64,000 nt of DNA from NCBI GenBank assembly GCA_027492205.1, contig JAOZFN010000017.1, positions 96,001-160,000 of the forward strand, given 5' to 3'. The position numbers were made by a program, and so were the translations under genes. The stretch is from Thermoproteota archaeon (GTDB taxonomy: Archaea > Korarchaeota > Korarchaeia > Korarchaeales > Korarchaeaceae). This document shows, in pieces, positions 5,736 through 41,052 of this stretch (position 1 is the first letter of the stretch; each line of letters starts with the position of its first letter). The notes under the pieces are model-generated. The model was given only the letters and a program-made list of their open reading frames with translations, made no database searches and was not told where the DNA came from.

Positions 5736-6803
5736 TCATGGGGTCATAACCGGAACAGAGCCGAATCTCCCCAGGTCCACCCAGTCGCCGGGTCTCGCGT
5801 CGGCCAGGATCAGTCTCAACCCCAAGGGCCTCCCTTTGATGGCCGCGGCCGCGAGGACATCCCTCATCAGCTTAGCCAAGGTAGGGGGGTTGAAGAGCGG
5901 AAGCGCCACCATGTCAACCCCGGCCACGCACACCGTCGACAGGCCGACTAGATCCCTCAGTCTGAGCTCGCCACGCGAGGCAAGCTCCTTAAGACGGTCG
6001 TCCTCGGCAACGGGCAGCATGACCTCCGAGAAGCCAACCGTCGGTGCGTGGTCTCTCAGAGAGGAGAGAATGGCGTTCAGTCGCCAGATCGCCCAGTAGG
6101 TGCCCGGCCCGCCGAACTCCTCTTCCGTGAGGGACTCTATCAGGGCCGCGACGGACTCCTCCATCCACGGCGACACGGACGGGTCTACGCCGAGGAACTC
6201 TATGCCAGAGGACATGGCTATTCTCCTGCCAGCCTCCGTGGCCCAATTCACGATTTCGATAATCCTCTGTTTCAGTTGCCTCCAGGATCCGGTCTGCGCG
6301 GCCACCCTGAGATCTCCCGCGTAGAGCAGGCTGAGGGAGATGCCCTCCCTCTCTGAAGCTGTGGACGGGAAGTAGGGCGTCTCGACGAGACCCCCCAGCC
6401 CCAGGGCCATCCTCGTGAGGGCTTCGGGTCCCTGATCTTCGAACACGGAGTGTAGAAGCCTGGCGAGCTTCGTCGCGAACTCGGGTCGCGGTCGCCTGAC
6501 CTCGATCCCCACGAAGATCGCGTCAGAGACGGAAAGGAGAGCCGGCGCCCCGCCAGCCTGATCCAAGCTTAGGGGGATGGAGAGGTACTCCGCGCCTGCT
6601 TCAGTCGCGCGGTCGTAGACCTCGGCGACGAGGTCCGGGCTCCGCGCCCAAGGCCCCCTGGGGAGGACGATCCTCTTGGTCCAGGCCAGGTCGCCCGAGG
6701 CCGAGAAGGCGGGCTCGGATTTGGCTAGGATGAGGTCCGGGATGGTGTCGATTTTCTCAGGATCGACGGGCGGTGCGTGGAAGGCGAGAGCTCTGATCCT
6801 CAA
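5736..6803 (-). CDS. DUF711 (UPF0210-like) family protein
   Basis: TPYFP, GVDPSVSPWMEESV, VGFSEVMLPVAEDDRL and CVAGVDM motifs typical of DUF711. Confidence 0.8.
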   Translation of the reverse strand: MRIRALAFHAPPVDPEKIDTIPDLILAKSEPAFSASGDLAWTKRIVLPRGPWARSPDLVAEVYDRATEAGAEYLSIPLSLDQAGGAPALLSVSDAIFVGIEVRRPRPEFATKLARLLHSVFEDQGPEALTRMALGLGGLVETPYFPSTASEREGISLSLLYAGDLRVAAQTGSWRQLKQRIIEIVNWATEAGRRIAMSSGIEFLGVDPSVSPWMEESVAALIESLTEEEFGGPGTYWAIWRLNAILSSLRDHAPTVGFSEVMLPVAEDDRLKELASRGELRLRDLVGLSTVCVAGVDMVALPLFNPPTLAKLMRDVLAAAAIKGRPLGLRLILADARPGDWVDLGRFGSVPVMTP

Positions 6804-35375: not shown

Positions 35376-36278
35376 TTGAGGCTCCTCAGGCCCTTCGACC
35401 CCTGGAAGAGCCCGCTGTGTACCTGCCCACCGCAGCTCACGCTCAATCCGTACACCGGGTGCGGGCACAAGTGCGTCTACTGCTACATTACCGCGTATGT
35501 GAGGGATGCCTTCAACCCGAGGCCAAAGAAGGACCTCTTATCACGTCTGATCTCCGACCTGAGGCACCTCCGGCCCGGAACCCTGGTCTCGATGAGCCTC
35601 AGCTCGGACCCGTACACGCCACCCGAGGGGGAGCTGGGGCTGACGAGGCGGGCCCTAGATCTCCTACTTAGAGCCGGGGCCAGGGTCCTCGTCGTGACCA
35701 AGTCCGGACTGGTGGCCCGTGACGCAGACCTGCTGGGGCGAGGCCGCGCGGCGGTAATGTTCACCGTCACGACGCTGAGCGAGGACCTGGCATCGAGGCT
35801 GGAACCCGGGGCGCCGCCGCCCAGGGAGAGGCTGAAGGCGATGTCTTTCCTCTCCGCCGCCGGCGTTCCCGTTGGACTCAGGCTGGATCCGATCATACCT
35901 GGTGTGAACGACTCCCTAGAGGAGATCGCGAGGATCCTGGAGGAGGCGAGGAGGGCCGGAGCCTCTCACGTAGTCTCCTCAACTTACAAGGCCAGGCCTG
36001 ACAGCGTGAGGCGCCTCACAGAGGCCCTGCCGGAGGTCGCCGAGGCGCTGAAGCTGGCCTACAGGTCGGGGGAGAGGGTCGGCGGCTACCTCTACCTGCC
36101 GAAGGCGGTGAGAGTCAGGCTCATGGAGGCGGTGAGGGAGGCGGCCCTTAGGTCGGGGATGACCTTCGCCACATGCAGGGAGGGGCTGGCCCACATGAAC
36201 ACGCCGGGTGTCTCGTGCGACGGGTCCCACCTGACCCCGCCCGACCGGGGGGCTCGGCCGACGGAAAAGGGATATTAG
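35376..36278 (+). CDS. Radical SAM protein, SplB-related family
   Basis: LNPYTGCGHKCVYCY, SSDPY.P.E, TKS, LEPGAP; TTG 35376 downstream of TTAAATA. Confidence 0.88.
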   Translation: MRLLRPFDPWKSPLCTCPPQLTLNPYTGCGHKCVYCYITAYVRDAFNPRPKKDLLSRLISDLRHLRPGTLVSMSLSSDPYTPPEGELGLTRRALDLLLRAGARVLVVTKSGLVARDADLLGRGRAAVMFTVTTLSEDLASRLEPGAPPPRERLKAMSFLSAAGVPVGLRLDPIIPGVNDSLEEIARILEEARRAGASHVVSSTYKARPDSVRRLTEALPEVAEALKLAYRSGERVGGYLYLPKAVRVRLMEAVREAALRSGMTFATCREGLAHMNTPGVSCDGSHLTPPDRGARPTEKGY

Positions 36279-36315
36279 GAACGCGCCGGGATCCAACCCC
36301 GCTGGGTGCCTGGGG

Positions 36316-36945
36316 TTGGGGCTCCACGCGTTCTTCGTGTTTGACGCCTTCACTGAATTCTTCAGCGCTCTCACGGCCATCTTCGTGGCCTATTACTCGC
36401 TGAGGGCCTACAAGATCCTGGAGGACAGCCGGATGGTCGCCCTCAACCTGGGGTTCTCCGTCCTCGGCGTCGGAATGCTGGTGCACGGGGCCATCAAGGT
36501 CAGGATAGCCTTGGCCGTCCTCTCCGGCGTGCCCGTCCCGCCAGCCAGGCGGCTCCCGCTGGTTAGGCTGGGGTACACCCTGGCCTTCGCCACGGAGCTG
36601 GCAGCCTACGCCCTCATCCTGCTCGCGACAATCAAGAGGCCCCCATCAATGGAGACGACACTCCTCCCACCACTGGCGGCCCCGCTGCTGGAGTACGATT
36701 TCCGCTCTGAGGCCCTCCTAGCGGTCCTGGCCCTGCTGATCGCCGTGAAGGCGGGAATTGGCTACTCCCAGGGGGAGTCGAGGCTCGCCGGGCTGGTGTC
36801 CCTCGGATTCGCGCTGCTCTCCGCCAGCCACTTCCTCCTCGTCTTCGGAGGCCCGCTGAAGCTGATCTCCGCCGACGTCGCGAGGCTGCTCGGGTTCGCC
36901 TGCCTCCTCTGGATGGTGATCAGGGTGAGCAGGGTGGGAGCATGA
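36316..36945 (+). CDS. Multi-TM membrane protein of unknown function
   Basis: 6-7 hydrophobic segments, host-like codon use, ATGA overlap with the next gene. Confidence 0.7.
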   Translation: MGLHAFFVFDAFTEFFSALTAIFVAYYSLRAYKILEDSRMVALNLGFSVLGVGMLVHGAIKVRIALAVLSGVPVPPARRLPLVRLGYTLAFATELAAYALILLATIKRPPSMETTLLPPLAAPLLEYDFRSEALLAVLALLIAVKAGIGYSQGESRLAGLVSLGFALLSASHFLLVFGGPLKLISADVARLLGFACLLWMVIRVSRVGA

Positions 36946-37229
36946 CGGCCAGGCAGAGGTACAGGTCGAAGATGAGGATCTGCTACGACATGCTCAGGGT
37001 GATACAGGAGGAGGGGGGAGAGGCGGGCCCCACCCGGATTCTCTACGGCGCGAACCTCTCCTACGAGAGGCTCAAGAGGTACCTCGCCGAGCTGATCGAG
37101 AAGGGCCTCATTGAGGAGGTGGAGAGGGACGGAAAGAGGATATACAGGCTGACGGACAGCGGGCGGATGTTCATCGTCCACTTCAGGAAGATGACGGAGT
37201 TCGCGAAGGCCTTCGGAATGATCCTATAA
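36942..37229 (+). CDS. Winged helix-turn-helix transcriptional regulator (HTH_45-like)
   Basis: RSKMRI..DML, TRILYGANLSY..LKRYL..L, YRLTDSG. Confidence 0.88.
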   Translation: MTARQRYRSKMRICYDMLRVIQEEGGEAGPTRILYGANLSYERLKRYLAELIEKGLIEEVERDGKRIYRLTDSGRMFIVHFRKMTEFAKAFGMIL

Positions 37230-37286
37230 CCTCGTCGCCAGGCCTCCCGACCGACCGCGCGGGTCGCCAGCGAGAGGCGCGCCGCG

Positions 37287-38056
37287 GTGCGCTGGTCCGA
37301 ACTCTCCGTGGAGGCCAGGAGTTACGTCCTGTATCAGCCCTAGCCTCGACGGTCCTGATCACGCGGTACGCGCTCCCCCTCTACCCGATGAAGGTGGGCT
37401 ACGGCGTCTTTGGAGGTCGGGGCCACATTCACGGCCGCGACCTGTTGAGCGTTCCGTTCACCGTCCTGCTGGGCAGGAGGTTCACGAGGGTCGACCCGAG
37501 GCTTGGGCTGGCCGCCATAGACCTGATGGAGGCGGTCTCCCTCGCCCTCTCCTCGATGGCGTACGGTCCGATGGCCCCCCTGCTCGTTCTGGCGGGGCAG
37601 CTGGTGGACGAGGCATCCAGCGTGCTCTATTCCCTCTATCCTGCCTACGAGAGGATCGCGTACTCGGAGGAGAGGTTCAGGAAGCCCATGCTGTGGCACA
37701 TGGCGGTTCCCGAGCTCTCGGTGGTCTTCACCTACCCGGCGCTCGGCTACGTCCTGGGGCGGGTCTGCGGTGACCCCTCCCGCCTACGACAGGCCTTCGC
37801 GGCCTTTGCGGCATACCAGCTGCTCCTGATACCCTACACCCTCCTGGCGCTCAGGCCCGTTGTCATAGAGGGTAAGAGAGATGGCCAGGGGGAGGGGAAG
37901 GGGGAGGGTTGGGGGGAGCGTGGGGATCTGTGGAGGAGGTATGGGGTCTACGTGGTCGCCGACGTCCTCTTCGTCCTGGGCTGGAGCCTGGCCCCGGGCT
38001 TGGCCACGGTCTACCTCGTTATGGAGAAGTTTGCGCGCGTGGCGGTCATAACTTGA
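37287..38056 (+). pseudogene. Truncated, frameshifted MFS-type transporter
   Basis: Hydrophobic segments spread over several frames (MRWSELSVEARSYVLY..., ..EVGATFTAA..), ends after about 7 TM. Confidence 0.5.
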
Positions 38057-38258
38057 CTGAGGAGGGTTCATCAACTCTGGAGAGCGTGGGCGGCTTGTCG
38101 ACTGGCGTGCGAAGACCTCGAAGGTTGCTTCCTGTGTAAATCCCAGCCCCACCCACCTTTTCGCAATTCAGTGGACCCGCGTAGGAGCCTTCGCTGTACA
38201 GAGGTCTCGCCCGTTACCAAAGGCAATTTAGTCTGAAAAGCCCTTGCCGGACTGTGTA

Positions 38259-38320
38259 GGGCGGTCGGGACTCGGCAAAGTCATCAGAGATCAGCCGGTT
38301 GATCCCTCCTCATCCCGCCC
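38259..38320 (-). ncRNA. Box C/D methylation guide sRNA
   Basis: GGGCGG-G-ATGAGGA(C)-GGGATCAACCGG-CTGA(D')-TCT-CTGATGA(C')-CTTTGCCGAGTC-CCGA(D)-CCGCCC; 6-bp terminal stem; guides complement 16S CCGGUUGAUCC and 23S ACUCGGCAAA. Confidence 0.88.
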
Positions 38321-38376
38321 AGCTGAAATGGCGGCCTGACTATTTTTCCTTATCTTGTGGGAGGTACCCCTCGGCC

Positions 38377-38898
38377 CTAACCTCCCCCGCCAGCCCCCCG
38401 GCTGATCCGCTCGGCCTCCCTGAGCGCTCGATCGTAGACGTCGGCCGTGAGCCAGAAACCGGCTCGGCTGAGGTTCCCGAGGTTTGTCCTGAACTGGGAG
38501 AGGTCGATTAGCCCGGCTTCCAGCAGATCAAGCAGGAGCCTCACCGTCCGCACGACCCTGACTCCCGCCGCCCTGGCCACGAGGTATGCCGGTCTGTCGT
38601 CCGCTAGGAGCGGGAGCCCCTTATCCAGCGCTAGAGAGATGGCCTCAGCCTCCCCCGGGTGAATATTCTCTCCGGCTGAGGGAACCGAGATCGGTTCGGC
38701 TCGCTCGACCGCCACCCCGCCAGCCTCGATCAGCGCTCTTAGGGCTTGAGCCTCCGGATGGCCCGTCTCTTCGCCCCTCACCACCACCTCGCGGTACACG
38801 GCCTCCGGAATCAGAATCCGGCCGAACAACCTCACCGCGAGGTCGATCTTCCCGAGCCTGACCAGGTATATCAGCGGGGTCGAGTTTGAGACCGCCAC
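38377..38898 (-). CDS. PIN-domain protein (DUF3368/VapC-like toxin)
   Basis: VSNSTPLIYL, IPEAVYREV, IHPGEAEAI, LADD; GTG 38898. Confidence 0.88.
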   Translation of the reverse strand: MAVSNSTPLIYLVRLGKIDLAVRLFGRILIPEAVYREVVVRGEETGHPEAQALRALIEAGGVAVERAEPISVPSAGENIHPGEAEAISLALDKGLPLLADDRPAYLVARAAGVRVVRTVRLLLDLLEAGLIDLSQFRTNLGNLSRAGFWLTADVYDRALREAERISRGAGGGG

Positions 38899-39188
38899 CC
38901 GAGATCCTCCTCCAAGTCCTCCAGGGTGTATTGGGCGGGGATCCGCCTCACCCTCAGCTCGGCTAGGAACTCGTAGAGGGTCAGACCGGCCATCTCCGCG
39001 GCCTTCCAAGCAGAGACCCTCCCCTCCGAGTAGAGTCTGATGGCCCTCTGAAGCTTCCACTGCCTCAGGCCCATCGAAATCAGCTTGCGAAGGGCCGTTG
39101 CCCTGTCGAGCTTCTCCTCCCTCTCCATCTCCTCCAGATCTTTCAGGGTGTCGTCTTCGATCCTGGTGGCCACCTGCCTCAGGGGCAC
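38871..39188 (-). CDS. UPF0175 family antitoxin-like protein
   Basis: RHH-like N-terminus, AIRLYSEGRVSAWKAAEMAGL..EF, LEEDL. Confidence 0.88.
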   Translation of the reverse strand: MPLRQVATRIEDDTLKDLEEMEREEKLDRATALRKLISMGLRQWKLQRAIRLYSEGRVSAWKAAEMAGLTLYEFLAELRVRRIPAQYTLEDLEEDLGWRSQTRPR

Positions 39189-39276
39189 GCGCGCTCGCGG
39201 GTGTGTTGATTTATAACTTTTGGGAACGACAATCTCCGGCCGACTCCGACCCTACGGTGAGTGGACCCGAGAGGAG

Positions 39277-39338
39277 GGGCGGTCGTGACTAGGCGAAGAC
39301 ATCGGCCTTCATCCCGTTGATCCCTCGTCGCACCGCCC
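39277..39338 (-). ncRNA. Diverged copy (pseudogene or paralog) of the box C/D sRNA at 38259-38320
   Basis: Ungapped 62-nt alignment, 48/62 identical by hand count; same GGGCGG/CCGCCC stem; boxes degenerate. Confidence 0.65.
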
Positions 39339-39612
39339 CCAAGAAATCTAGTGGGTCTGTTTTTGAGTTCCATTCTCCGGGCGTCTAGGGAATCTCCTTT
39401 AGCGTTCGCAGCGCAGGCGCTCCTTCAACTATTGAGCGCTCCAAACCCTCCAGCTGGATACGCACCCGCGCCCTGAAGTGGGTGTAAAGACAACCGGCTG
39501 CCGGCGATAGCGTTGGCCACCGTCGCAGTTGCCCTTCACTCAGGCCCCCGCCTGTCGGGTCCTGAGAGCAGCCCGGAATAACTCAGATTGGGGGCGTCGA
39601 TCCGATCGACTA

Positions 39613-40143
39613 ATGAGTGGGCCCCCCTACCCCCGGCGCGTGCCTAAAGAGGCTGCGGTGGCCATTGTAATCGCCGAGGTACGCGGATCTCCGTCCGTCC
39701 TCCTCGTCAGAAGGGCCAAGATGGGGGGCGATCCCTGGTCTGGAGACGTGGCGCTTCCGGGAGGGAGAAAGAAGGGCTCCGACCCAAGTCTGCTGGACAC
39801 GGCTATCAGGGAGTGCGCGGAGGAGACGGGAGTCGATCTTTCGGGGCTGAGGCCCGTGATTACTCTCGGCCCCTTCAGGTCTCAAGCGGATCCCGAGATG
39901 CTGGTGTGGGCGTTTGCCTTCACGCCCCCTGGGGCTCCGAAGGTCGCGCCCGGAGAGGAAGTTGAGGAGGCGTTCTGGGTGCCCCTTGCAGAGTTGAACG
40001 AGTCCAAGGGGGCGGCGAAGGTGAAGGGGAGGACCGTCGAGGCCTACTTATGGCGCGGGAGGGTGATATGGGGCCTGACGAAGCGGATCCTCGACCGTGC
40101 CCTCCCCCTCCTCTCCCAGCTCGGCCGTGGCAGGCCCGGCTGA
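39613..40143 (+). CDS. Nudix hydrolase, CoA pyrophosphatase-like
   Basis: AAV, DPWSGDVALPGG, TAIRECAEETG, IWGLT. Confidence 0.88.
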   Translation: MSGPPYPRRVPKEAAVAIVIAEVRGSPSVLLVRRAKMGGDPWSGDVALPGGRKKGSDPSLLDTAIRECAEETGVDLSGLRPVITLGPFRSQADPEMLVWAFAFTPPGAPKVAPGEEVEEAFWVPLAELNESKGAAKVKGRTVEAYLWRGRVIWGLTKRILDRALPLLSQLGRGRPG

Positions 40144-40147
40144 CAGC

Positions 40148-40986
40148 CTACCTGACGATCCCGCCGTACGTGATGACCTCGATCCCCCTGGACTCCAGCT
40201 CTTCTATGAGGGGGTTTATCCCCACCGAGTCGGAGGCCACGTGGCCGGTTACTATGAGGCTCCCCCTAGCGCCCGACTCCCTGAGGGCCCTGGGGTCCTC
40301 AGGGCCCTGGGGTCCTCCGGCTCTAGGTGGATGTAGATGACGGTGTCCACGCCGTGCTCGAAGTACGCCCTGGCCACCCTGTGTCCCCCGCTCGTGAAGG
40401 CGCCGTGGGCGACCACCGCCCTCTTGACCTCGGCCGACTCCTCGCCTAGCGCGAGGAATATGGGGGTCTCCGCAAGCTCGAACTCCCGCAGCTGGGAGAG
40501 GGCATGCACGAGATCCCCCACCGTGAGTCTGCCCGTGGCCATGACGCCGTCGACGACCTCCTGCATTATCCTCCGGCCCACCTCGTCCAGCGGGCAGTGT
40601 ATGTTCATGTACCCGACCCCCAGGAGGCTGGCTACCGACGGGGCGAGATCGTGGTTCTTCTTGTGGTCGACGAGCCTCAGAGCCTCGAACTTCTCCCTCA
40701 CGGCCTCTCTAGCCACGTCCTCCGGAACTCCAGCCTTCACCATGATCTCCACGTGCCTCAGAAGGACCTCGTGGCCTCTCACGGCGGCGCTTCCGCCCTC
40801 GGGGTGATGAGCAATGGCCAGGTCGCACCCAAGCTGCCTGGCCAGGAGCAGGCCGGGGACGCCCACGTCTATGCCAAACAGGACTCTCTTCACGTCTTCC
40901 TTGGGGACGTATATCTGGGAGTCGGCGGGCACCTGGTCGAAGCCGGCCAGCTCAAGGGCCAGAGACATGATCTCCTCTGTGTTCAT
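40148..40986 (-). pseudogene. Nif3-like dinuclear metal-centre protein disrupted by a 17-bp tandem duplication
   Basis: FGID, IAHHP, NIHCPLD; removing one AGGGCCCTGGGGTCCTC copy (40284-40300/40301-40317) restores ...TGHVASDSVGIN...GGIVR*. Confidence 0.78.
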
Positions 40987-41052
40987 CGAGACACCTCGAG
41001 GTCTAGAACTGGGTAGATAAATCTCTGGCCTAGCCGTGAGGCGGGACTCCGG

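What the first reader, a model, noticed from the sequence alone, without database searches (positions are those of the whole stretch)
38259..38320. Dual-guide C/D sRNA predicted to methylate both 16S and 23S rRNA, with compensated variant boxes
Seen: 62-nt C-D'-C'-D layout with two 12-nt guides and a terminal stem; box C ATGAGGA and box D CCGA replace the U-U pair by G-C. Known: archaeal 16S starts with ..CCGGUUGAUCCUG, 23S contains AAGGAACUCGGCAAA, and the target pairs with the 5th nt upstream of D/D'. Inference: Um at the first U of CCGG[U]UGAUCC in 16S (central pseudoknot region) and Cm in ACU[C]GGCAAA in 23S.
Basis: partly seen in the sequence, partly recalled or inferred. Interest (0 to 1): 0.7.

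Follow-up and report, generated by a model that had tools for sequence, protein, structure and literature searches.

The report
Archaeal C/D box methylation guide RNA
This is a genuine but ordinary archaeal box C/D guide RNA gene predicted to direct ribose methylation of one site in 16S and one in 23S rRNA, and in related genomes its 3' end also appears to be a landing site for integrase-carrying mobile elements.

Summary
On the minus strand, 38320 to 38259 reads stem, box C AUGAGGA, 12-nt guide, D' CUGA, spacer, C' UGAUGA, 12-nt guide, box D CCGA, stem. [quoted passage not shown] The D guide pairs with its 23S over 10 Watson-Crick pairs (target at the E. coli 1671 position). Nineteen genomes in three genera hold 21 homologous copies; 18 genomes keep both guides. 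The terminal stem covaries. The box C position 5 / box D position 2 pair is G-C 13 times, A-U 5 times and G-U 3 times, so the compensated-box idea holds. G-C is also common among other C/D candidates in this genome. Both guide modules are already known elsewhere: Rfam sR14 and Ignicoccus sR155 for 16S, Pyrobaculum sR38 for 23S. Only their combination is new. No expression or methylation data could be obtained. Beyond the finding, a decayed second copy lies 1 kb upstream across a toxin-antitoxin cassette. In relatives, tyrosine-integrase elements abut the sRNA 3' end, and this window carries the unoccupied site. Verdict: a new member of a known kind, of low to moderate interest.

The parts
38259..38320 (-). 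Box C/D sRNA gene, 62 nt
   Evidence: It is 100% identical in sister genome G001, while the surrounding 4.3 kb is 86% identical.
38315..38320 (-). 5' strand of the terminal stem (GGGCGG)
   Evidence: All 6 stem pairs show changes on both sides across 16 sequences.
38307..38313 (-). Box C, AUGAGGA (G at position 5 instead of U)
   Evidence: Position 5 covaries with box D position 2.
38295..38306 (-). D' guide GGGAUCAACCGG, antisense to the 16S 5' end
   Evidence: 11 Watson-Crick pairs plus 1 G-U with the genome's own 16S. 11-12 Watson-Crick pairs in relatives that have a full-length 16S.
38291..38294 (-). Box D', CUGA
38281..38286 (-). Box C', UGAUGA (preceded by the 4-nt spacer UCUC, 38287-38290)
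38269..38280 (-). D guide CUUUGCCGAGUC, antisense to 23S
   Evidence: 10 contiguous Watson-Crick pairs with own 23S positions 1840-1849. No credible 16S target in three full-length 16S genes of relatives (at most 7 contiguous pairs).
38265..38268 (-). Box D, CCGA (C at position 2 instead of U)
38259..38264 (-). 3' strand of the terminal stem (CCGCCC)
38339..38346 (-). A/T-rich TATA-like octamer starting 26 nt upstream of the sRNA 5' end (putative own promoter)
   Evidence: in 18 of 19 homologous loci the most A/T-rich octamer (at least 7 of 8 A/T) starts between -31 and -22. Promoter function is inferred.
38258..38274 (-). 17-nt core CGAGUCCCGACCGCCCU (end of D guide, box D, 3' stem, plus 1 nt). 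It is repeated at both ends of an integrase-bearing insertion in sister genome G001 and is unoccupied here.
39277..39338 (-). Decayed second copy of the sRNA gene (75% identical over 71 nt; boxes GCGACGA / AUGA / CGAUGU / ACGA)
   Evidence: It lies where the single sRNA gene of G004 lies, next to the NUDIX gene.
38377..39188 (-). Two-gene toxin-antitoxin-like cassette between the two sRNA copies: UPF0175 (38871-39188) and PIN/DUF3368 (ORF 38377-39060)
   Evidence: Pfam PF03683 at 1.7e-16 and PF20698 at 1.6e-10.

Best explanation
The region is a functional archaeal box C/D sRNA gene on the minus strand, probably transcribed from its own TATA-like promoter. The RNA should fold into a terminal C/D kink-turn and an internal C'/D' K-loop. 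These bind L7Ae, then Nop5 and fibrillarin.

The D' guide pairs with the first nucleotides of 16S (E. coli 9-20) and places the first U after CCGG (E. coli U13 position) in the fibrillarin active site. The D guide pairs with 23S (own positions 1840-1849, E. coli 1668-1677) and directs methylation of C1843 (E. coli 1671 position). That site is already predicted to be methylated in Pyrobaculum, Thermoproteus and Ignicoccus.

In the kink-turn the usual U-U pair (box C position 5 with box D position 2) is replaced by a G-C Watson-Crick pair. This is a habit of the lineage, not a peculiarity of this RNA.

Shown here: the sequence anatomy, the complementarity to the genome's own rRNAs, conservation, covariation, and presence of the three protein genes. 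Inferred: transcription, RNP assembly and the two methylations.
For: - Anatomy with canonical 12-nt guide spacing.
- Guide-target pairing with a Watson-Crick pair at N+5 for both guides; shuffle controls 1/1000 and 17/1000.
- BLAST of 41 genomes found full-length homologues at E <= 1e-5 in 14. An exact guide-plus-box pattern is in 16 of the 43 genomes of the phylum, with 0 hits to the reversed control.
- The D guide is kept in 21 copies from 19 genomes, and both guides in 18 genomes, while the spacer and stems change.
- The count of structure pairs on 16 sequences: all 6 stem pairs have changes on both sides, and 0 of 500 shuffles reach the observed score.
- The box C5/D2 pair is G-C 13, A-U 5, G-U 3 across the 21 copies.
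- The gene is 100% identical between G000 and G001, against 86% for the flanking 4.3 kb.
- An A/T-rich box lies near -26 in 18 of 19 loci.
- Fibrillarin, Nop5 and L7Ae genes are present.
- The same D guide register occurs in Pyrobaculum sR38, Tte sR151 and Iho sR169; the last is assigned to 23S C1991 in Dennis 2015 (supplement passages).
- The same 16S guide occurs at the D' position of Rfam sR14.
Against: - No RNA or methylation data: no sequencing run was listed.
- There is no Rfam match at gathering score.
- The D guide duplex is only 10 bp, with mismatches at both ends.
- Only the first ~349 nt of this genome's 16S are assembled. Alternative 16S targets were therefore excluded only in three relatives.
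- The 11-mer and 10-mer target cores each occur once more elsewhere in the genome (C3:108550, C11:4125). That is about the chance expectation, but other targets are not excluded.
- Dennis 2015 lists Iho sR155, which carries the identical 16S guide, as having no predicted target.
Confidence: 0.85

Rival explanations
1. The RNA is real, but its main job is folding control rather than methylation. By holding 16S nucleotides 9-20 (the 5' strand of helix 1 and of the central pseudoknot) it would delay pseudoknot formation, as U3 snoRNA does on 18S. It would also tether the 16S 5' end to 23S domain IV within one precursor.
For: - The D' guide covers exactly the segment that forms helix 1 and the pseudoknot 5' strand (numbering; helix assignment from established 16S structure, recalled).
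- A 2021 review states that U3-like RNPs are not known in archaea (PMC8339473, passage).
- The 16S guide is widespread: 16 of 43 genomes here, 53 of 121 in another class, and Ignicoccus sR155.
- 16S and 23S appear to be adjacent across a contig gap.
- Chaperone roles for dual guides have been proposed (Dennis 2015 passages).
Against: - The N+5 position is a proper Watson-Crick pair for both guides, as expected for methylation.
- The guide is patchy: it was not found in the Pyrobaculum catalogue (0 occurrences), occurs once in the supplement of Dennis 2015's seven-species catalogue, and was not found in 27 of 43 genomes of this phylum.
- The partner guide differs between lineages, so no fixed 16S-23S bridge is conserved.
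- Nothing was tested experimentally.
Confidence: 0.1
2. The sequence is a chance C/D-like motif or a dead relic that is no longer expressed.
For: - There is no Rfam hit at gathering score.
- The fold energy is not significant.
- A decayed copy exists 1 kb away, showing that such genes do die here.
Against: - Boxes, spacing and both guides are intact and conserved across three genera, with covariation.
- It is identical in G001 although the flanks are 86% identical.
- Shuffle controls.
Confidence: 0.03
3. The sequence is conserved mainly because it is the attachment site of mobile elements, and the guide function is secondary.
For: Integrase genes or their remnants abut its 3' end in G001, G003, G004 and G021.
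Against: - Only the last ~17 nt are repeated in G001.
- Conservation of the 5' guide, the boxes and the covarying stem is not explained by an att function.
- Most homologous loci examined show no integrase.
Confidence: 0.03

Closest known systems
Rfam RF01145 (sR14), a C/D box sRNA family of genomes in another archaeal class (handles g20/g16; I recall sR14 as a Pyrococcus family, but the tools give no organism names)
   Same: Same D' guide module (U/C/G)GGAUCAACCGG + CUGA at the same position, so the same predicted 16S target. It is also the best sub-threshold Rfam match of the window RNA.
   Different: The D guide is different (AGUCCGCAUCAC). The boxes are canonical AUGAUGA/CUGA in the 8 parsed g20 loci (L200-L207) and AUGACGA/CCGA in L208-L210. 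The window RNA scores 22.1 bits against a 38-bit gathering score, so it is not a member.
Ignicoccus hospitalis sR155 (Dennis et al. 2015, PMC4644070, supplement)
   Same: Contains GGGATCAACCGG followed by CTGA, identical to this D' guide.
   Different: There the guide sits before box D, not D', with a different partner guide. The published table gives 'NP' (no predicted target) for both guides.
Pyrobaculum sR38 family (Lui et al. 2018, PMC6009581, supplement), Thermoproteus tenax sR151, Ignicoccus sR169
   Same: D guide UUUUGCCGAGUG + CUGA is in the same register as CUUUGCCGAGUC + CCGA, so the same 23S cytidine is targeted. Iho sR169 is assigned to 23S C1991. sR38 C'/D' boxes show the same G-C (GUGAGGA/CCGA) and A-U (AUGAAGA/CUGA) alternatives.
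   Different: The partner guide there targets another sequence (AUGGAGACCUCGC and similar), not the 16S 5' end. Synteny was not examined.
U3 snoRNA (eukaryotes)
   Same: [quoted passage not shown]
   Different: U3 does not methylate, has extra hinge and box A/B elements, and pairs with the 5' ETS. Here the architecture is that of a plain methylation guide with a Watson-Crick N+5 pair.
tRNA genes as attachment sites of archaeal tyrosine-integrase elements
   Same: A short direct repeat of the RNA gene's 3' end flanks an integrase-bearing insertion (G001), and the integrase gene lies next to the intact RNA gene (G021).
   Different: The target is a C/D box sRNA gene. The 2021 review of archaeal tyrosine recombinases (PMC8371274) has 0 occurrences of sRNA or snoRNA.

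Membership tests
Archaeal box C/D sRNA (2'-O-methylation guide) | Box C (RUGAUGA) near the 5' end and box D (CUGA) near the 3' end, able to form a kink-turn with tandem G-A pairs | tested here: met
   AUGAGGA and CCGA keep both GA dinucleotides and the G6-C1 pair. Position 5/position 2 is G-C instead of U-U, and it covaries (G-C 13, A-U 5, G-U 3 in 21 copies).
Archaeal box C/D sRNA (2'-O-methylation guide) | Internal D' and C' boxes separated by a short spacer | tested here: met
   CUGA, a 4-nt spacer, then UGAUGA.
Archaeal box C/D sRNA (2'-O-methylation guide) | Guides of about 12 nt between C and D' and between C' and D | tested here: met
   Both guides are exactly 12 nt.
Archaeal box C/D sRNA (2'-O-methylation guide) | At least 9 contiguous Watson-Crick pairs to rRNA or tRNA with a Watson-Crick pair at N+5 (criterion as in Lui 2018, passage) | tested here: met
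   11 contiguous pairs (16S) and 10 contiguous pairs (23S). N+5 is A-U and G-C respectively.
Archaeal box C/D sRNA (2'-O-methylation guide) | Terminal stem and conservation in related genomes | tested here: met
   All 6 of 6 stem pairs have compensatory changes, and 0 of 500 shuffles reach the observed score. Homologues occur in 19 genomes.
Archaeal box C/D sRNA (2'-O-methylation guide) | Partner proteins L7Ae, Nop5 and fibrillarin | tested here: met
   The genes are present in the genome. Binding itself cannot be tested with these tools.
Archaeal box C/D sRNA (2'-O-methylation guide) | Stable ~60-nt transcript and methylated target nucleotides | not testable with these tools
   No sequencing run was listed for the locus.
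Rfam RF01145 sR14 | Score at or above the curated gathering score (38 bits) | tested here: not met
   22.1 bits, E = 7e-4. Only the D' guide module is shared.
[quoted passage not shown] | Both guides shared | tested here: not met
   The D guide is shared in register, but the D' guide is unrelated.
RNA gene used as integrase attachment site (attB) | Direct repeat of the gene's 3' end at both borders of an insertion that encodes a tyrosine integrase, with an unoccupied site in a relative | tested here: met
   The 17-nt repeat is in G001. The insert is at least 6.6 kb and carries a PF00589 integrase N-terminus. G000 has the sRNA joined directly to the flank that follows the partial copy in G001. 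The insert spans a contig break, so its continuity is inferred from synteny.

The most novel reading that the evidence does not exclude
This conserved C/D box sRNA gene serves as the chromosomal attachment site of a family of tyrosine-integrase mobile elements, in the way tRNA genes do. The window would show three traces of that use: an unoccupied 17-nt core at the sRNA 3' end; a decayed sRNA copy at the ancestral position next to the NUDIX gene; and a 1-kb toxin-antitoxin cassette as the remnant of an old element that delivered the sRNA copy now in use.
Probability: 0.5. Interest if true: 0.5.

Novelty: new member of a known kind. Interest (0 to 1): 0.3.

Why it matters
As a guide RNA it adds little. 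Both predicted methylation sites and the box variation are already in catalogues from other archaea, and what is new is that the two guides sit in one RNA.

Three points have some value:
- It documents C/D sRNAs in a small, poorly studied archaeal phylum (43 species representatives in the collection).
- It shows that the 16S 5'-end guide is a widespread module. At least one published catalogue left it without a target.
- Relatives give comparative evidence that a C/D sRNA gene can be an integration site for integrase elements. I did not find that in the papers searched. If it holds, it would extend the rule that mobile elements target small RNA genes to another RNA class, and it would offer one route by which sRNA genes get duplicated and moved.

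Tried and rejected
- Rfam at gathering score: nothing in the window and nothing in 8 homologous loci of relatives.
- Sequencing runs: no RNA holder was listed and no run of any kind was listed.
- Viral contigs: the 16-nt att core gave 6 hits, all unrelated sequence contexts with no adjoining sRNA sequence (five GC-rich at 0.61-0.70, one AT-rich at 0.42). The dual-guide pattern gave 0 hits.
Taxon-restricted pattern searches replaced it.
- Searching relatives with the G001 integrase N-terminus found only distant hits at no more than 46% identity over long stretches, plus one 56% hit over 43 aa (G004:C187). None was at the sRNA locus.
- tblastn with four integrases, and separately with the G021 integrase, found no integrase in window 36000-41000.
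- D guide against 16S: no credible site in three full-length 16S genes of relatives. The usual 'both guides within 100 nt' arrangement was therefore rejected.
- The decayed copy was considered as a second working sRNA and rejected. Its box C5/D2 is C-C, its C6/D1 is G-A, and its D' and C' boxes are degenerate.
- Earlier notes of this scan: nothing on record.
- The plus-strand ORF 38299-38511, which overlaps the sRNA, was not examined further.

Full report
WHAT IS THERE. The reverse complement of window 38259-38320 reads GGGCGGG-AUGAGGA-GGGAUCAACCGG-CUGA-UCUC-UGAUGA-CUUUGCCGAGUC-CCGA-CCGCCC. It lies 57 nt downstream of the stop codon of a PIN-domain ORF on the same strand. An A/T-rich octamer starts 26 nt upstream of the RNA's 5' end. 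In 18 of 19 homologous loci the most A/T-rich octamer starts between -31 and -22. This fits an independent archaeal promoter, though promoter function is inferred.

TARGETS IN THIS GENOME.
- The genome (1.94 Mb, 17 contigs, about 63% G+C) has its 23S on contig C12.
- The Rfam search found no 16S. However, the first ~349 nt of 16S lie at the edge of contig C16 and read ...GACCGGUUGAUCCUGCCGGA.
- The D' guide pairs with CCGGUUGAUCCU: 11 Watson-Crick pairs plus one terminal G-U. The nucleotide five positions upstream of D' faces the first U after CCGG. By alignment to an E. coli operon this is the U13 position.
- The D guide pairs with ACUCGGCAAA in 23S: 10 contiguous Watson-Crick pairs, with both end positions mismatched. 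It targets own C1843, which aligns with E. coli 1671.
- Of 1000 shuffled guides, 1 reaches 11 contiguous pairs for D' and 17 reach 10 for D.
- Genome-wide, each target core has one further occurrence besides the rRNA and the gene's own antisense strand. That is about what chance gives.
- In three relatives with a full-length 16S, the D' guide again matches the 5' end (11-12 pairs) and the D guide has no credible 16S site. The 16S-plus-23S reading therefore stands.
- Fibrillarin, Nop5 and L7Ae genes are present.

CONSERVATION AND THE VARIANT BOXES.
- BLAST of 41 genomes found full-length homologues at E <= 1e-5 in 14.
- An exact guide-plus-D' pattern occurs in 16 of the 43 genomes that make up this phylum in the collection, with no hit to the reversed control.
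- Parsing gives 21 copies from 19 genomes that keep the 23S guide. Of these genomes, 18 also keep the 16S guide. G007 has another D' guide.
- Guides and boxes are conserved, while the spacer and stem change. On a 16-sequence alignment all six stem pairs show changes on both sides, and 0 of 500 shuffles reach the observed covariation.
- The pair formed by box C position 5 and box D position 2, normally U-U, is G-C in 13 copies, A-U in 5 and G-U in 3, and never a mismatch. Two more distant RNAs that share only the 16S guide have U-U (G005) and C-C (G037).
Among the few strict C/D candidates in this genome, G-C is the commonest combination (3 of 5, 3 of 6). The same alternatives appear in the C'/D' boxes of Pyrobaculum sR38. 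Lui et al. 2018 already describe greater box and K-turn variation in Pyrobaculum (passages).

WHAT IS ALREADY KNOWN.
- Rfam gives nothing at gathering score. The best weak match, sR14, turns out to be meaningful. In another archaeal class the guide-plus-box pattern is in 53 of 121 genomes (53 of 85 in one family). In 5 of 8 loci scanned it lies inside Rfam sR14, at the D' position.
- The supplement of Dennis et al. 2015 lists Ignicoccus sR155 with the identical 12-mer followed by CTGA, but gives it no predicted target.
- The 23S guide occurs in the same register in Pyrobaculum sR38, Thermoproteus sR151 and Ignicoccus sR169. The last is assigned to 23S C1991. Helix 61 of domain IV is named as a methylation hotspot (Dennis 2015 passage; Breuer 2021 section 4).
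- Dual guides that address both rRNAs also occur in that table (a row pairing 23S C999 with 16S U1282, beside the Mka sR68 entries).
- What is new is only the pairing of these two modules in one RNA and its lineage. I could not see the figures or PDF supplements of these papers, which may show the 16S 5' end.

MECHANISM AND RIVALS. The best reading (0.85) is a standard methylation guide RNP acting on both sites. A folding-first, U3-like role for the 16S guide is not excluded (about 0.1). The guide covers the strand that forms helix 1 and the central pseudoknot. U3 pairs with the same end of 18S, and a 2021 review says no such RNP is known in archaea. However, the N+5 pairs are canonical, the guide is patchily distributed, and its partner guide differs between lineages. 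Chance or a dead relic is very unlikely.

OUTSIDE THE FINDING: A RECOMBINATION HOT SPOT. A 71-nt stretch at 39277-39347 is 75% identical to the sRNA gene, but its boxes are ruined. Between the two copies lies a UPF0175 plus PIN cassette.

- G004: a single intact sRNA gene sits directly beside the orthologous NUDIX gene (48% identity, E = 3e-46), with no cassette and no second copy. The decayed copy in this window therefore occupies the ancestral position.
- G001: the sRNA is followed by foreign DNA. The flank that follows the sRNA in this window lies on another contig. There it is preceded by a 17-nt copy of the sRNA 3' end and at least 6 kb that end in a tyrosine-integrase N-terminus (PF00589, 1e-11).
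- G021 (another genus): an intact 392-aa tyrosine integrase converges on the sRNA 3' end. A second contig shares 119 identical nt (59 nt upstream plus the sRNA) and then diverges exactly at the sRNA 3' end. From there it continues into the flank seen in two sister genomes.
- G003 and G004: remnants of the same integrase family lie in the same place and orientation (E = 9e-20 and 1.7e-25).
- This window has no integrase, so it carries the unoccupied site.

The inserts cross contig breaks, so their continuity is inferred from synteny. A search for papers combining 'box sRNA' with integrase and integration-site terms listed none among the 15 of 199 papers shown. The 2021 review of archaeal tyrosine recombinases has no occurrence of sRNA or snoRNA.

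VERDICT. The observation and the interpretation are both supported. This is a real, conserved box C/D sRNA and an ordinary example of its kind, with untested expression. The more interesting lead is the use of its 3' end as an integration site in relatives.

Noticed in passing
window 39277-39347 (-): Decayed copy of the sRNA gene, 75% identical including about 9 nt upstream, with ruined boxes. It is also present in G001 with 3 differences from this genome's copy. It sits at the position the single sRNA gene occupies next to the NUDIX gene in G004.
   Followed up: partly
window 38377-39188 (-): UPF0175 antitoxin-like gene overlapping a PIN/DUF3368 gene, bracketed by the two sRNA copies. The cassette is absent from the orthologous locus of G004.
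   Followed up: partly
L030 (G001:C32:45500-51652) and L025 (G001:C9): Insertion of at least 6.6 kb at the sRNA 3' end. It carries a tyrosine-integrase N-terminus, a CopG/RHH gene, a radical-SAM gene and several ORFs with no family, and is bounded by a 17-nt repeat of the sRNA 3' end. This window has the empty site.
   Followed up: partly
L197 (G021:C17:60200-62346) and L199 (G021:C125): An intact 392-aa tyrosine integrase and a small ORF with no family assignment (not scanned against Pfam) converge on the sRNA 3' end. A second contig shares 119 identical nt and then diverges exactly at the sRNA end into the ancestral flank. Remnants of the same integrase family lie at L029 277-694 (G003) and L031 2022-2358 (G004).
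   Followed up: partly
L025, L029, L031, L009, L024, 10-25 nt after the sRNA: A palindromic motif, roughly GCCCTTTATAAGGGC, follows the sRNA in G001, G003, G004, G007 and G021 copy a. This window does not have it. Its role (promoter, terminator or recombinase arm site) is unknown.
   Followed up: no
window 37388-38056 (+): A 222-aa ORF that matches only the N-terminal half of a 404-aa MFS-like protein of G003. The gene appears truncated about 200 nt from the sRNA, which suggests a deletion or replacement at this junction.
   Followed up: partly
window 6570-6661 (+): ARAGORN calls a 92-nt tRNA-SeC, but the Rfam scan of the whole window at gathering score found no tRNA there. It may be a false call or an unusual tRNA.
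   Followed up: no
G000 contigs C16 (start) and C12 (end): The 16S gene is cut by a contig edge after about 349 nt and was missed by the Rfam search. The 23S lies 609 nt from the end of C12, so the rRNA operon probably spans the gap between these contigs.
   Followed up: partly
G000 C1:35908(-), C1:78123(-), C3:72567(+), C11:18560(+), C9, C10: Other C/D box sRNA candidates from my pattern scans. Several have the same AUGAGGN/CCGA box combination. Their targets were not examined.
   Followed up: no
Dennis et al. 2015 supplement (PMC4644070): Ignicoccus sR155 is listed with no predicted target, although its guide before box D is a perfect antisense to the 16S 5' end motif CCGGUUGAUCC. The published target tables may miss sites at the extreme 5' end of 16S.
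   Followed up: partly
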